Positions 28,826 to 36,580 of a stretch of DNA of 36,888 bases are shown here, in pieces. A program made the position numbers and the translations under genes. Location: positions 1 to 36,888 of the IMG/VR virus record IMGVR_UViG_3300044698_000184; one strand, 5' to 3'. The notes below the pieces were generated by a model that searched no databases, was not told the origin of the DNA, and saw only the letters and a list, made by a program, of their open reading frames with translations. Position 1 is the stretch's first letter. Each line of letters opens with the position of its first letter. This DNA comes from a virus. Taxonomy: Duplodnaviria; Caudoviricetes.

Positions 28826-29746
28826 CTACGAAGCCCAATCCAGAGACTCCATCGCAGCCTGCACGTCGTGCTCCCATGTGCGTACGTAGATCATGGTGGT
28901 TCGCGGGTCCCGATGGCCGGTCCATGCCATCGCCACCGGCACACCGTGGGTCTTCGCAACCTTCGACGTGCCCGCGTGCTTCAACTGGTGCGTGGTCAAC
29001 TCGAGCCCCAGGTCGGCAGCAAGGTTGCGCGTCCACGACCAGATCGTCGCCGGGGTCACATGCGGACGTCCGCGGTCGCCCACGAACAGGAACGGTGAGT
29101 GGCACTGTGGCCGCCACACGTCCAGCGCCTCACGCAGCCGAGGATGCACCGGCAGGGTGGCGATGTCGCCGGTCTTGGCGCGCTGCCACGACCACCGGTC
29201 ACCGGCATCCGAGGTCCACGCAGCCCGCGCAATCTCCACACGCCGCTTGGACAGGTACAGCCCGAGCAGGACCGCGACACCTTCACGTTGCCCGTTGAGC
29301 GCCCGCCTGTGCGCTTCTCCTTCGATCTGTGCCGTGTGGTCGTCGGACGGTGCCGACGGCATCGGCTGCGGCTTACGTGGACACCTGACCGCTGTCGTGA
29401 GGTCTTCCCTGTTCGCGAACTGGCACCATCGCCCCAGCGCCGACCGGGCCCCCTTCCTCGACGAATGGGAATACGGGATGGTGTCGTCGGCCCACTGGCG
29501 CACCTGACTCCGTGTGACCGCCTCGGGGATGACCCTGTGCTGGTCGCACCATCGGTGCAACCGGTCGATCCACTTCACATATTCGGTCACGGTGGAGTCG
29601 GCGTAGCCGTGCCCCCACAGGAACGTCTCGAATGGCTCTTGCCCCAAGGATCTACCGCCTTGTCGTGTACTAGGGACGCGACAGATTGCACGAACGGAGG
29701 CGGTGAGTGTTTGCTCAAACGCACGGGTTGCGAGGAGGGCGGTCAT
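28826..29746 (-). CDS. int: tyrosine recombinase/integrase (short, XerC/D-like)
   Basis: SAM-like N-domain; catalytic R (SKRRVEI), K (AKTG), HQLKH, GH..PRTTMIY. Confidence 0.92.
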   Translation of the reverse strand: MTALLATRAFEQTLTASVRAICRVPSTRQGGRSLGQEPFETFLWGHGYADSTVTEYVKWIDRLHRWCDQHRVIPEAVTRSQVRQWADDTIPYSHSSRKGARSALGRWCQFANREDLTTAVRCPRKPQPMPSAPSDDHTAQIEGEAHRRALNGQREGVAVLLGLYLSKRRVEIARAAWTSDAGDRWSWQRAKTGDIATLPVHPRLREALDVWRPQCHSPFLFVGDRGRPHVTPATIWSWTRNLAADLGLELTTHQLKHAGTSKVAKTHGVPVAMAWTGHRDPRTTMIYVRTWEHDVQAAMESLDWAS

Positions 29747-30048
29747 GCGTAGACGCGTGCGCGGAGCCCGAAAGGCAGGCGACTGAGCAACCCCGGATTA
29801 GTGAGGTCGCGCAGAGTATCGACCCACACCTCGTGGAGCACATCGCGGGGTTCGTCCAAGGCCTCGGCGAGTGCGGTGAGTTGAGGTCCCTGGATGTCTC
29901 GGATACCGAGGCCACGTTCCCATCGCGAGATCGTGGTCTGGTGGACGTCGACGATGGTGGCGACGTCCACCGCTGAGAGTCCGAGCTCGATCCGTCTGCC
30001 GCGGATGAACTTGCCGAACGGGGTGTGCGCGGGGGCGAGGGCTGGCAC
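29743..30048 (-). CDS. immunity repressor, XRE-family HTH
   Basis: AGGAG RBS and GTG at 30048; FGKFIRGRRIELGLS..DVA..VDVHQTTISRWERG; divergent from cro. Confidence 0.88.
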   Translation of the reverse strand: MPALAPAHTPFGKFIRGRRIELGLSAVDVATIVDVHQTTISRWERGLGIRDIQGPQLTALAEALDEPRDVLHEVWVDTLRDLTNPGLLSRLPFGLRARVYA

Positions 30049-30063
30049 GGGGCGTCTCCTTCT

Positions 30064-30226
30064 GTAAGCGCGAGGCAAGTATGCGCGTGGAGCGTACAGA
30101 CCGTCAAGTAATGACGTAAGCACATTGCTCCACTTCGTAACTACAGGGCGGTAACTACGCCCATCGGGAACCCGCCCAGAGAAGTATGCACGAAACGCTT
30201 GACGCTGGTAGGCACTTCGTGCTTAC
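30064..30226. promoter_or_regulatory. divergent lysis-lysogeny switch with five GTAWGCRC operator-like boxes and two TTGACG -35 elements
   Basis: Boxes at 30064, 30079, 30116, 30184 (+) and 30219-30226 (-); TTGACG at 30199-30204 (+) and 30102-30107 (-); leftward -10-like CATACT at 30078-30083. Confidence 0.7.
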
Positions 30227-30234
30227 CTCCGAAC

Positions 30235-30495
30235 ATGCCTAGAACAGCCACCAACCCCACCCGCCGTGTCGATCCGATCGCCCGCGCCTGGGGCGACGAA
30301 ATCAAGATCCGTCGGCGGGACGCCTACACGCAGGCCGAACTCGCCTTCGAGTGCGGCGTCCACCAGACCACGATCAGCCAGGTCGAACGGGGCGTGCTGA
30401 TCCCATCCCCACGCCTTCAGCGTCAGCTGTGCAGGGTGCTCGGGCTCGACCCGCACACCGTCTACCGGCTCGTCCGCGGAACGGACGCCGCGTGA
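30235..30495 (+). CDS. Cro-like XRE HTH protein (probably leaderless mRNA)
   Basis: YTQAELAFECGVHQTTISQVERG; no RBS, ATG about 30 nt after the -35. Confidence 0.88.
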   Translation: MPRTATNPTRRVDPIARAWGDEIKIRRRDAYTQAELAFECGVHQTTISQVERGVLIPSPRLQRQLCRVLGLDPHTVYRLVRGTDAA

Positions 30496-30529
30496 ACGGC
30501 AGCCGACCGGGAGCAGGTCGCATGAGTTG

Positions 30530-30583
30530 GTCAGGGCTGGGCTCGGACCGGCAAGGCTCGTCATGGCATGGCTTGGCTGGCGC
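30530..30583 (+). repeat. upstream phased GGC-NN pentamer array (putative guide RNA unit)
   Basis: gtcAG ggcTG ggcTC ggaCC ggcAA ggcTC gtcAT ggcAT ggcTT ggct ggcgc. Confidence 0.85.
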
Positions 30584-30605
30584 ACACGAATCGTCTGTAA
30601 CGAAG

Positions 30606-30635
30606 TCCATCCCGACCGGTCCGGGTCGGGATGGA
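30606..30635 (+). other. perfect 12-bp stem-loop between the upstream array and the RAMP-like gene
   Basis: tccatcccgacc-ggtccg-ggtcgggatgga. Confidence 0.8.
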
Positions 30636-30669
30636 AGGCCATACCCCCAACAGTGAGAAGGAGTACGAC

Positions 30670-31287
30670 ATGGCCAACGATACCGCACAGGTCCACATCG
30701 ACCGCATACCCGCGGAGACCATCCGTGTCCCGCTCGTCGGCACGTCCCCGCTGATCGTCCACCGGTTTTCCGAGAAGGCGAAGCGGCAGATGCTCGACGC
30801 GATGCAAGGCCGCAAGTCACCGAAGCAGGCCAAGGACCCGGAGGCCGAGTACGAGGCGTCGTTCTACCGCCTGAAGGACGGCACGTTCGGGTTCCCGACC
30901 ATCGCCTTCAAGGCCGCGACCGTCGGGGCAGCCAGGTTCTACGCGCAGTTGACGATGACGTCGTTGAAGCAGTCCATGTTCTTCCGTGGCGAGCCGGGCG
31001 AGGACGGCCAGCAGTTGTGCAGGATCGACGGTGAACCGCGGATGCGTGAGGACGCCGTCCGGGTCGGTCGTGGCGGGTCGGACCTGCGCTACCGCGGCGA
31101 GTTCTTGGAGTGGTCTACCTACGTGGACGTGACCTACGTGACGTCGGCGCTGACCCGCGAGTCGGTCCTGTCGCTGATCGACGCGGGCGGGATGGGTGTC
31201 GGAATCGGTGAGTGGCGTCCAGAGAAGGACGGCGACTTCGGCACGTACCGCATCGACCCGACCCGGGAAGTGGAGGTGCTGGCATGA
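30670..31287 (+). CDS. standalone RAMP/Cas7-like RNA-binding protein (205 aa)
   Basis: GAAGGAG RBS. IRVPLVGTSPLIVH (beta1), GFPTIAFKAA (like IPxSxxKG) and C-terminal Gly-rich loop GVGIGEWRPEKDGDFGTY match the RAMP motif order. No other cas genes are present. Confidence 0.75.
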   Translation: MANDTAQVHIDRIPAETIRVPLVGTSPLIVHRFSEKAKRQMLDAMQGRKSPKQAKDPEAEYEASFYRLKDGTFGFPTIAFKAATVGAARFYAQLTMTSLKQSMFFRGEPGEDGQQLCRIDGEPRMREDAVRVGRGGSDLRYRGEFLEWSTYVDVTYVTSALTRESVLSLIDAGGMGVGIGEWRPEKDGDFGTYRIDPTREVEVLA

Positions 31288-31700
31288 CGTTGCGGGAACA
31301 GCTGCAGGCGATTTACGACGAGCACGGCCGGCTGACCGCAGGCCTGGTCGTGGACGCGTCGAAGGCGAAGTCCCATCCGCTGCATGCCCGGTACTGGTCG
31401 CTGGCGGACCGTGAGGCCGCGTACGAGTACCGGAAGGTGCTGGCCGCGAAGGACATCCGGTCGGTCACGGTCGTCTATCGGGAGGCCGACGAGAGCTCAC
31501 CAGCCGAACACGTGCGGGCGTTCCACGCGGTGCGCGACGAGGAGGGTGAGTACTCCTACGAGCCGGTCGAGAAGGTCGTGCAGTCCGAGTTCCTCACCAA
31601 GCTCCTGCTCGCAGACATGGAGCGCGAGTGGAAGGCGCTGAAGCGCCGGTACGACACGTTCACCGAGTTCTGGCAGATGGTGAAGTCCGATGTTGCTTGA
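31284..31700 (+). CDS. helical partner protein of the RAMP-like gene (138 aa)
   Basis: ATGA-coupled; LQAIYDEHGRLTAGLVVDAS....HPLH..Y...D.EAAYEYR...A...IRSV. Confidence 0.8.
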   Translation: MTLREQLQAIYDEHGRLTAGLVVDASKAKSHPLHARYWSLADREAAYEYRKVLAAKDIRSVTVVYREADESSPAEHVRAFHAVRDEEGEYSYEPVEKVVQSEFLTKLLLADMEREWKALKRRYDTFTEFWQMVKSDVA

Positions 31701-31712
31701 ACAGCGGAGTGA

Positions 31713-31913
31713 GGCAGGCGTGGCAGGGCAGGGCGCGGCAAGTCCGCACCCGGCGCGGCAAGGTCCGTCAGGGCAGGCACGGTTCCGCACGGCTCGGAAT
31801 GGCCGATCTGGGCTGGGCGGGGCGTGGCTAGTCGTGGCTTGGCACGGTGAGGCAGGCGTGTCTTGGCTCGGCTCGGCACGGCAGGGTGCGACCTGGCATG
31901 GCTTGGCAGGTGA
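31713..31913 (+). ncRNA. downstream phased GG(C/T)-NN pentamer array, three units split by GGCA tetramers (putative guide RNA array)
   Basis: 36 pentamers (11+15+10), 27 starting GGY; GGCA at 31713, 31772, 31851, 31905. The repeat is directly visible; RNA status is inferred. Confidence 0.75.
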
Positions 31914-31916
31914 CTC

Positions 31917-32462
31917 GTGAAGTCGCCCCGAACCGCCCCGCACCCGCAATATCCGCATAACTCCAGTTATCCGGAATCCGCGGGGCGCCGGTCGGGCCGG
32001 GCCCGGCTGCTCGCCGCAGCCGCCCTGCTGGCCTCCACCGTGCCCGCGGCACCCACCCCCTCGACCCCGGCCGCGGCTCACCATCACGTGTCGCGGCCGC
32101 GGCCGCCGGCACCCGCGGCGGGTGTCCATCCCGTCGCCACCGCGCTTGCCGGCGCGGCGCCGGCCGAGCCGAAGGCCGCCACGTGCGTCTCCTCGTGGTA
32201 CGGAGAGGCGCACCGTGGCCGGCCCACCGCGTCCGGCGTCCCGTTCGACCCTGACGCGTTGACCGCCGCGTCATGGAACCACGACTTCGGCACCCGGCTG
32301 GCTGTCACACACGGGACCCACACCGTGGTCGTGACCGTCAACGACCGTGGCCCTGCCCGGGCCCTGAACCGCTGCGTGGACCTGTCCGCCGCAGCGTTCG
32401 CCCGGCTCGCCGACCTCGACGCCGGCCTGATCGACGTGACCGTCGAGGAGGTCGCCCCGTGA
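31917..32462 (+). CDS. RlpA-like (DPBB) secreted lytic transglycosylase
   Basis: SWYG...GRPTASG..FDPDALTAAS...FGTRL.VT...VVVTVNDRGP...VDLS.AAF. Confidence 0.9.
   Translation: MKSPRTAPHPQYPHNSSYPESAGRRSGRARLLAAAALLASTVPAAPTPSTPAAAHHHVSRPRPPAPAAGVHPVATALAGAAPAEPKAATCVSSWYGEAHRGRPTASGVPFDPDALTAASWNHDFGTRLAVTHGTHTVVVTVNDRGPARALNRCVDLSAAAFARLADLDAGLIDVTVEEVAP
31950..31977. other. dif-like 11-6-11 tyrosine-recombinase core site
   Basis: tatccgcataa-ctccag-ttatccggaat. Confidence 0.45.
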
Positions 32463-35698: not shown

Positions 35699-36580
35699 AT
35701 GAGCGCCGAAGCCGTCGGGTGGGTGTTCCGCCATTCGCCCTACTCCGGCCTCAAGTTCGCGGTCCACCTCGCGATCGCCGACTCCGTCAACGACCAGCAC
35801 GACCAGGAACTGTGGATGTCCCAGTCCCGTCTGGCATCCAAGGCCCGGTGCTCCCGCCCCCGCGCGAACGAGGCCCTGGTCGAGCTTGTCGACGACGGGT
35901 ACCTCGTCCTGCTCGAGGAGCACGTCGGCAGAGCAAACCGGTACCGGTTCGTGTTCCCGGACGTGCCGGTGTCCTACGAGTCCCGACCTCGCAAGGCCAC
36001 CCTGAACACCGGCGGACCTGTTCCGTCACGGAACACCCCCCCGAACGACCAGGTGTCACCTGGCGGAACACCACCTGTTCCGTCACGGAACACCCACCTG
36101 TTCCGTGGCGGAACACCACCTGTTCCCTCACGGAACACAGAACCCAAGAAACCCAAGGCTGGAACCCAACCTCCACCTCCCGCACGACGGTCGCAACTCC
36201 TCGACGACCTGGCCGCGATCGGCCGGGAGGAGGCGGAGGAACATCTCACCCAGATCCGCCGGCGGCTGCACGGCGACCTGCCCGGACGTCTCGACTGCGA
36301 CCCGGCCGCCGACGACCTCCTCGACGCCCTGGTCGAGATCGCCGCCCGCGGTTGGACCCCGCCGCAGGCTGCCGTCGCGCTCACCGCCGACCCGCTCGGC
36401 GACGCCCGGTCGATCGCCCGCGTCCTGGCAGCCCGGGCCCGTCACCTCGCCGACCTCGACCCGCCGCAGCACCGCAGTACCGCAGCAGCGCAGGACTGCC
36501 GAACCTGCGCCGGGTCCGGCTGGATCGCCGCCACCGACGAACGGGCCGTGGTGGCCTGCCCCTGCAAGGCCGCAGCATGA
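35699..36580 (+). CDS. replication initiator with N-terminal winged HTH (lambda O-like layout)
   Basis: MSAEAVGWV...VHLAIAD...WMSQSRLASKARCSR...LVELVDDGYL...NRY; internal iterons; C-terminal CxxCxGxGW...CPC. Confidence 0.82.
   Translation: MSAEAVGWVFRHSPYSGLKFAVHLAIADSVNDQHDQELWMSQSRLASKARCSRPRANEALVELVDDGYLVLLEEHVGRANRYRFVFPDVPVSYESRPRKATLNTGGPVPSRNTPPNDQVSPGGTPPVPSRNTHLFRGGTPPVPSRNTEPKKPKAGTQPPPPARRSQLLDDLAAIGREEAEEHLTQIRRRLHGDLPGRLDCDPAADDLLDALVEIAARGWTPPQAAVALTADPLGDARSIARVLAARARHLADLDPPQHRSTAAAQDCRTCAGSGWIAATDERAVVACPCKAAA
36016..36170 (+). repeat. iteron array / probable replication origin
   Basis: Four 22-bp ACCTGTTCCGTCACGGAACACC-type copies (36016, 36073, 36096, 36118), one degenerate copy (about 36053), then three AACCCAA. 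Confidence 0.85.

What the first reader, a model, noticed from the sequence alone, without database searches (positions are those of the whole stretch)
31713..31913. Downstream array is punctuated into three guide-like units with decodable NN strings
Seen: the 5-nt phase is exact except at four GGCA tetramers (31713, 31772, 31851, 31905), each shifting the phase by one and delimiting units of 11, 15 and 10 pentamers. NN strings: A (31717-31771) GT-AG-AG-GC-AA-CG-CC-GC-AA-CC-AG; B (31776-31850) AC-TC-AC-TC-AT-CG-TG-TG-GG-GT-TA-GT-TT-AC-GA; C (31855-31904) GT-TT-TC-TC-AC-AG-GC-CT-AT-TT. Of 36 triplets, 27 are GGY and most variants keep the third C (GTC, GAC, ATC, CGC, CAC). The NN positions are 50% A+T (36/72), well above this GC-rich genome, and are not homogenised as in a slippage microsatellite. 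Inference: GGCA-GG marks processing boundaries and the NN strings encode targets, possibly gapped. Skipping every third target base would fit codon positions 1-2 of a high-GC gene or an AT-richer promoter.
Basis: partly seen in the sequence, partly recalled or inferred. Interest (0 to 1): 0.88.

Follow-up and report, generated by a model that had tools for sequence, protein, structure and literature searches.

The report
Staggered VIPR guide array, temperate actinophage
The five-base repeats split by GGCA sit right behind a Cas7-like phage gene and are likely three back-to-back guide RNAs of a VIPR gene-silencing system described in 2026; no target was found for these three, but the same kind of units in cultured Gordonia phages match genes of rival phages two bases out of every three, so this is a new example of a known system.

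Summary
The array follows a two-gene operon in a temperate phage. The first gene (30670-31287) has a RAMP/Cas7 fold, and its only significant PDB sequence hit is SUSP1 Vipr. This is a VIPR locus with the published "staggered" array layout (bioRxiv 10.64898/2026.04.26.720920, fig. S18 legend). GGCA makes up 289 of 383 four-base phase slips across 21 homologous loci plus the window. No target was found for units A, B or C. In four Gordonia phages with the same two genes, 9 of 15 units matched other Gordonia phages best at a one-base skip and beat all 40 shuffles. All 9 were antisense to the gene, skipped the wobble base and stopped at the junctions. A fourth unit upstream of vipr matches an actinophage capsid gene 18/18; this is a lead, not significant alone. 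Processing at GGCA is untested. The scan has found this layout on other DNA at least six times. Verdict: new member of a known kind.

The parts
31713..31908 (+). Staggered vrRNA array: GGCA junctions at 31713, 31772, 31851 and 31905 (each reads as a GGC-AG pentamer sharing its last G with the next unit)
   Evidence: family-wide junction
31717..31771 (+). Unit A, 11 GGY/NN pentamers; target not found
31776..31850 (+). Unit B, 15 pentamers; target not found
31855..31904 (+). Unit C, 10 pentamers; target not found
30530..30578 (+). Upstream single unit U, outside the finding: 9 clear pentamers plus a GGCT junction, 5' end degenerate; candidate target in a P22-like actinophage capsid gene
30670..31287 (+). 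vipr gene, 205 aa, RAMP/Cas7-like fold, G-loop GIGEWRP
31284..31700 (+). Accessory (vap-like) gene, 138 aa, overlapping the vipr stop; phrog_15946; fold unresolved
30606..30635 (+). 12-bp hairpin between unit U and vipr; role unknown
   Evidence: z -1.84 for the 81-nt stretch
30199..30495 (+). Cro-like HTH gene heading the rightward early operon (context)
29743..30123 (-). CI-like HTH repressor (context)
28826..29746 (-). Tyrosine integrase (context)

Best explanation
The GGCA-punctuated repeat tract lies directly behind a vipr gene and its accessory gene in a temperate phage and is likely a staggered array of three VIPR guide RNAs, predicted to be cut apart at the GGCA junctions and to steer a Vipr filament to silence genes of rival phages. 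Shown here: the sequence layout, the RAMP fold, kinship to SUSP1 Vipr, the family-wide junction, and separate 1-nt-skip targets for units of Gordonia homologues. Taken from the published type II systems: one Vipr subunit binds each GGY and presents the NN pair, every third target base is flipped out, and the bound complex blocks transcription. Inferred: co-transcription with cro-vipr-vap in the early operon, processing at GGCA (by an unknown nuclease), and targets that are conserved codons of competing actinophages read antisense with the wobble base skipped.
For: Protein: the only PDB sequence hit of the single protein is SUSP1 Vipr (E 0.0011; profile E 3e-7). In that alignment R142 and E181-W182-R183 match SUSP1 R138 and D177-W178-R179, residues the cryo-EM paper names for GGY binding; all four are invariant in 42 aligned sequences. 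The model (pLDDT 86) matches Cas7/Csm3/Cmr RAMPs (Foldseek E 2.4e-6; Z 10.8, rmsd 3.6, 153 aligned). Locus: 23 of 24 homologous loci carry a GGY/NN tract (the other ends at the gene), 17 of 24 the accessory gene, and 21 of 24 a strict GGCA junction. GGCA is 289 of 383 four-base slips, and 117 of 171 bounded units have 8-11 pentamers. Code: 9 of 15 Gordonia units beat all 40 shuffles at skip 1, four of them perfectly (20/20, 18/18, 16/16, 14/14), and scored lower at skips 0, 2 and 3. All 9 are antisense with the skip on codon position 3, in tape measure, major tail, integrase and small early genes. Their best own-genome matches are 65-79%. The window's own units have no self match of 80% or more, and all four favour antisense decoding by 4.2-7.9 bits.
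Against: 6 of 15 Gordonia units had no hit. An all-against-all test of 113 units on 34 loci showed no clear excess at skip 1 (5 vs 1 shuffled at 85% or more, one of the five pre-selected). Two Nonomuraea units found 0 and 1 weak match in 110 genomes. Two more homologue units found nothing in viral contigs. Antisense preference across the family is modest (81 of 129 units) and confounded by the rarity of C-first dinucleotides. The units lack the 3' tail that type II vrRNAs use, so the type II mechanism is an extrapolation.
Confidence: 0.92

Rival explanations
1. It is a VIPR array, but not cut at GGCA: Vipr assembles on one long transcript and the one-base slip only breaks the filament register, so units act as separate modules of one RNA.
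For: No nuclease is evident (accessory protein fold unresolved); there is no tail or ribozyme between units (no Rfam hit); the paper's sRNA-seq confirmation covers ribozyme and single-guide layouts, not staggered ones.
Against: The fig. S18 legend speaks of 'individual processed vrRNAs'. The junction is a specific word rather than any slip (289 of 383), which suits a recognition site.
Confidence: 0.15
2. The complex acts mainly on mRNA or nascent transcripts rather than double-stranded DNA, because the guides are complementary to the message.
For: All 9 Gordonia hits (8 independent) and candidate U are antisense to the gene; SUSP1 Vipr can pair with ssRNA in vitro.
Against: Published type II targets lie on both strands, either strand silences GFP, and RNA targets give mostly incomplete filaments. 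Pairing with the non-template DNA strand gives the same bias.
Confidence: 0.1
3. The tract is a small protein-coding gene (76-aa frame 31690-31920) or a decaying microsatellite with no guide function.
For: One + frame is open across the array; GenBank annotates hypothetical CDSs over the arrays of Pipp, UmaThurman and Donkeykong.
Against: The period is 5, not 3; GC3 is 0.67 against 0.89 in vipr and vap; no CDS is annotated over the Ecliptus and ODay arrays; NN are conserved between relatives and decode to real phage genes in homologues.
Confidence: 0.02

Closest known systems
VIPR systems with staggered vrRNA arrays (bioRxiv 10.64898/2026.04.26.720920 = PMC13142463, Results and fig. S18 legend)
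   Same: Phage-borne vipr plus accessory gene; GGY/NN tracts of 9-16 repeats; units overlapping by 1 nt; one upstream guide and three downstream, as in SUSP1.
   Different: The word GGCA occurs 0 times in the supplement text searched; the text I read reports targets for types II, III and V and none for staggered arrays as such. Figures and data S1-S4 were not visible.
Type II VIPR of phage SUSP1 and the P. fulva prophage (same paper; 10.64898/2026.04.26.720927; 10.64898/2026.10.15.759431; PDB 36pp)
   Same: RAMP fold, G-loop and thumb residues, 1-nt skip on the wobble base, competing mobile elements as targets, no self-targeting.
   Different: Type II vrRNAs each end in a structured tail of about 40 nt, whereas units here abut through 4 nt. 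The protein is only distantly related (E 0.0011). Type II targets lie on both strands; the homologue targets found here were all antisense.
Class 1 CRISPR Cas7/Csm3/Cmr4 RAMP backbones
   Same: Same fold; filament on a guide RNA with periodic base flipping (per the papers).
   Different: No repeat-spacer array, and no cas family among 43 ORFs scanned against Pfam; guide information is non-contiguous.

Membership tests
VIPR | Stand-alone RAMP-fold Vipr protein with thumb and G-loop | tested here: met
VIPR | Minimal locus: vipr plus accessory gene, usually in a phage or provirus | tested here: met
   vap-like gene 31284-31700, homologue in 17 of 24 loci; portal, capsid, tail, integrase and repressor in the window
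VIPR | Flanking tracts of 9-16 YNNGG repeats with variable NN | tested here: met
   11, 15, 10 and 9 pentamers
VIPR | NN specify a target with a 1-nt skip (window's own units) | tested here: inconclusive
   A, B, C: no target; U: 18/18 candidate, not significant alone
VIPR | NN specify a target with a 1-nt skip (Gordonia homologues, Vipr 62-65% identical) | tested here: met
   9 of 15 units
VIPR | No self-targeting at 80% NN match or more | tested here: met
   A, B, C against the window at skips 0-3; U was not run at nucleotide level against the window
VIPR | vrRNA is expressed, processed and bound by Vipr; target is repressed | not testable with these tools
   needs RNA and bench data
VIPR, staggered arrays | Units overlap by 1 nt, the end of one being the start of the next | tested here: met
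   GGC-AG/GGY overlap at four junctions; compared with the legend only, figure not seen
Type II VIPR (SUSP1-like) | Conserved structured 3' tail after each repeat tract | tested here: not met
   units abut through 4 nt; the terminal hairpin folds no better than shuffles
VIPR types I-VII | Placement in the published Vipr tree and vap class | not testable with these tools
   data S4 and figures not held
CRISPR-Cas | Direct repeat-spacer array and multiple cas genes | tested here: not met
   5-nt period, no spacers; no Rfam hit in 30100-32300; no cas family in 43 ORFs
TIGR-Tas | Array with 18-nt period and a Nop-domain effector (recalled) | tested here: not met
   period 5; RAMP fold

The most novel reading that the evidence does not exclude
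GGCA-staggered VIPRs are a mechanistically separate, tail-less branch: GGCA is a dedicated cut signal read by Vipr or its accessory protein, and the guides are strand-specific, always complementary to the message of essential virion and integration genes of rival temperate phages. The cultured Gordonia pairs found here (Pipp to Gambino, ODay to Kuwabara and Lucky10, Ecliptus to Spooky) make guide maturation, strand choice and unit gain directly testable in one host.
Probability: 0.3. Interest if true: 0.62.

Novelty: new member of a known kind. Interest (0 to 1): 0.35.

Why it matters
The system, code and array layout are published, so the window itself adds one more example. The useful addition is evidence that GGCA-bounded units are independent guides, with natural targets in cultured Gordonia phages sharing one laboratory host. 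That gives ready test pairs for open questions: how tail-less guides mature, whether strand matters, and how new units are gained. It also suggests that several annotated 'hypothetical proteins' in actinophage records are mis-called guide arrays.

Tried and rejected
Self-targets at skips 0-3: none at 80% or more. Unit A 20/22 in L164/L119: rejected; about chance for 119 seeds, and by my reading the skip falls on codon position 1. Best B 23/30 and best C 19/20 (GC 0.44 contig) are chance-level. A, B and C against three Streptomyces phages and the Gordonia panel: no better than shuffles or than other skips. Decoded peptides against 90 held sequences: nothing for A, B, C. Units of 8 or more pentamers against 120 capsids and 120 Vipr proteins: only 6-of-8 matches. 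Host identification failed: integrase homologues carry no organism names, and the cell-wall-binding protein hit 3 of 401 genomes at about 40%. No RNA holder listed. Rfam: no match. No rightward sigma-70-like promoter or terminator called. The accessory protein model was poor (pLDDT 60, single sequence) with no fold match; the Atlas gave unnamed viral clusters only. One search was a first pass with a faulty parser and is superseded. In one search, Pipp_2 and Uma_4 contain an internal slip that the parser dropped, so their misses may be artefacts. Literature searches: 'vipr', 'vrrna', 'gordonia' gave 0 papers; 'staggered' and 'vrrna' gave one work.

Full report
Observation. Every number in the finding is reproduced: four GGCA tetramers at 31713, 31772, 31851 and 31905; units of 11, 15 and 10 pentamers; 27 of 36 GGY triplets; 36 of 72 A/T in NN. 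The periodicity is far beyond chance (8 of 10 in-phase GGY against at most 6 in 100 shuffles). NN is A+T-richer than the window (p=0.0008) but not than codon positions 1+2 (p=0.12); in homologues NN is 52% A+T over 3104 bases. A second tract lies upstream of the first gene, with 9 clear pentamers at 30530-30574 and a GGCT junction.

Context. The held genome is the window alone, a virus record. It encodes terminase, portal, prohead protease, capsid, tail, integrase, and divergent CI-like and Cro-like genes, at 69% GC. That it infects an actinomycete is inferred from GC and from the hosts of its Vipr homologues; the host was not identified. The order is cro, unit U, ORF 30670-31287, ORF 31284-31700, array.

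Protein. ORF 30670-31287 has 3949 homologues at E 0.001 or better and no Pfam family. Its only PDB sequence hit is SUSP1 Vipr (36pp_D; E 0.0011 alone; 3e-7 as a 42-sequence profile). Counting along the alignment, R142 and E181-W182-R183 fall on SUSP1 R138 and D177-W178-R179, which the structure paper names as GGY contacts; they are invariant in the alignment. The AlphaFold2 model (pLDDT 86) matches Cas7-family RAMPs; these fold libraries end in April 2026 and listed no Vipr entry. The second ORF has homologues in 17 of 24 related loci and in the same four Gordonia phages; its fold is unresolved.

Family anatomy. In 21 homologous loci plus the window (L002 and L229 carry the same array), GGCA is 289 of 383 four-base phase slips, and 171 GGCA-bounded units peak at 8-11 pentamers. 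The tetramer reads as a last GGC-AG pentamer sharing its G with the next unit, which fits the '1 nt overlapping positions' of the fig. S18 legend. Between close relatives L005 and L012, 14 of 22 units have a same-length counterpart; there NN differ at 12 of 254 positions and triplets at 30 of 381. So NN is the conserved information and units turn over as blocks.

Targets of the window's units. No self match reached 80% at any skip. Eight-dinucleotide seeds in viral contigs gave 8 and 61 loci for B, 119 for A and 24 for C, with chance-level extension. Full A gave 0 in metagenome contigs. The B seed gave 119 loci there, best 23/30. The 3' 12 dinucleotides of B with up to 3 mismatches gave 0 of 401 Actinomycetota genomes. 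For unit U, 41 seed hits held one contig above 60% GC; it extends to 18/18, antisense and in wobble register, in a major capsid gene at the motif NIMDFGEQL. About 2.6 such extensions are expected among 41 seeds, and eight low-GC loci, apparently one phage family, also extend, so this is a lead. Streptomyces phages Galactica and Hiyaa match 17/18 and Keanu 16/18, but they were picked by capsid homology and are not independent. 3 of 120 capsid relatives fit all nine residues and 16 fit eight. A, B and C do not hit those phages.

Test of the code in homologues. Gordonia phages Pipp, Ecliptus, UmaThurman and ODay carry Vipr at 62-65% identity. I searched their 15 units of 7 or more pentamers against 16 Gordonia phage genomes (arrays masked; panel chosen by DNA similarity to Pipp and Ecliptus, and including the four sources). 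Nine units beat all 40 shuffles at skip 1 and scored lower at skips 0, 2 and 3 (shuffles were run at skip 1 only): Pipp_3 20/20 in Gambino; Ecliptus_3 16/16 and its homologue ODay_2 14/14 in Spooky; ODay_3 18/18 in Kuwabara and Lucky10; ODay_1 19/20; Ecliptus_1 18/20; Uma_1 18/20; Uma_2 17/18; Ecliptus_4 16/18. Six units had no hit. The targets are tape measure, major tail, integrase and two small genes near the antirepressor. All are antisense with the skipped base at codon position 3; 8 of 8 independent units gives two-sided p about 0.008 by my arithmetic. Neighbouring units hit unrelated sites, and the target continues with AG after the unit in only 1 of 9 cases, so the junction is not templated. 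Own-genome best matches are 65-79%. Against this, an earlier all-against-all test on mixed loci showed no clear excess, and four other homologue units found nothing significant.

Mechanism. Shown: layout, fold, kinship, conserved junction, and separate gapped targets in homologues. Published for type II: one protomer per repeat, GGY sequestered, every third target base skipped, R-loop triplex, transcriptional silencing of competing elements. Inferred for this phage: early co-transcription, maturation at GGCA, and silencing of conserved genes of rival actinophages. Processing is the weakest step: the paper's sRNA-seq confirmation covers ribozyme and single-guide layouts only.

Literature seen. 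10.64898/2026.04.26.720920: whole text and a term search of its supplement PDF; figures and data S1-S4 were not visible and may hold the GGCA junction, the type and strand counts. 10.64898/2026.04.26.720927: parts 1-2 of 6. 10.64898/2026.10.15.759431: part 1 of 8 and passages. 10.64898/2026.10.21.760802: passages. A search for VIPR with Gordonia found 0 papers. I recalled VIPR as a lead before and then checked it. Six earlier scan notes describe the same layout on other DNA, one with a target and one with an antisense reading; they were read last and are not support.

Verdict. A real feature and a new member of a known kind: a staggered-array VIPR locus. Interest 0.35, mostly for the testable Gordonia guide-target pairs and the strand bias.

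Noticed in passing
window 30520-30578: Upstream single GGY/NN unit with a degenerate 5' end; candidate target in a P22-like capsid family widespread in actinomycete prophages, a different family from the window's own capsid (PF05065).
   Followed up: partly
L233:3617-3886, L407:1531-1854, L234:2501-2887: GenBank CDSs Pipp gp43, UmaThurman gp40 and Donkeykong gp48 lie over vrRNA arrays and are probably mis-called genes.
   Followed up: partly
L408:1622-1666 (ODay unit 3): Perfect match to the tape measure genes of Kuwabara and Lucky10, while a similar-looking site in ODay's own genome matches only 13/18: possible self-avoidance by amino-acid divergence.
   Followed up: partly
L005, L012, L014, L230: Very long arrays: 19-32 cleanly bounded units per fetched locus, on contigs of 114-177 kb and in a Nonomuraea genome; L005 and L012 lack the accessory gene homologue in the fetched stretch.
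   Followed up: partly
L229, - strand, about 290 bases upstream of vipr: A unit of L229/L002 matches its own upstream region 17/20 at skip 1: possible autoregulation, or chance.
   Followed up: no
window 30606-30635: 12-bp hairpin between unit U and the vipr start; no T run, no Rfam hit.
   Followed up: partly
window 36064-36138: 22-nt repeat, 3.4 copies, inside the replication-initiator gene: likely origin iterons.
   Followed up: no
L228: The record is titled Flavobacterium MAG but carries a GC-rich Vipr locus 69% identical to the window's; possibly a misbinned contig.
   Followed up: no
homologous arrays: NN starting with C are under-used (CG 67, CT 69 of 2777), and triplet degeneracy is lowest at unit ends (91-94% GGY against 73% mid-unit).
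   Followed up: partly
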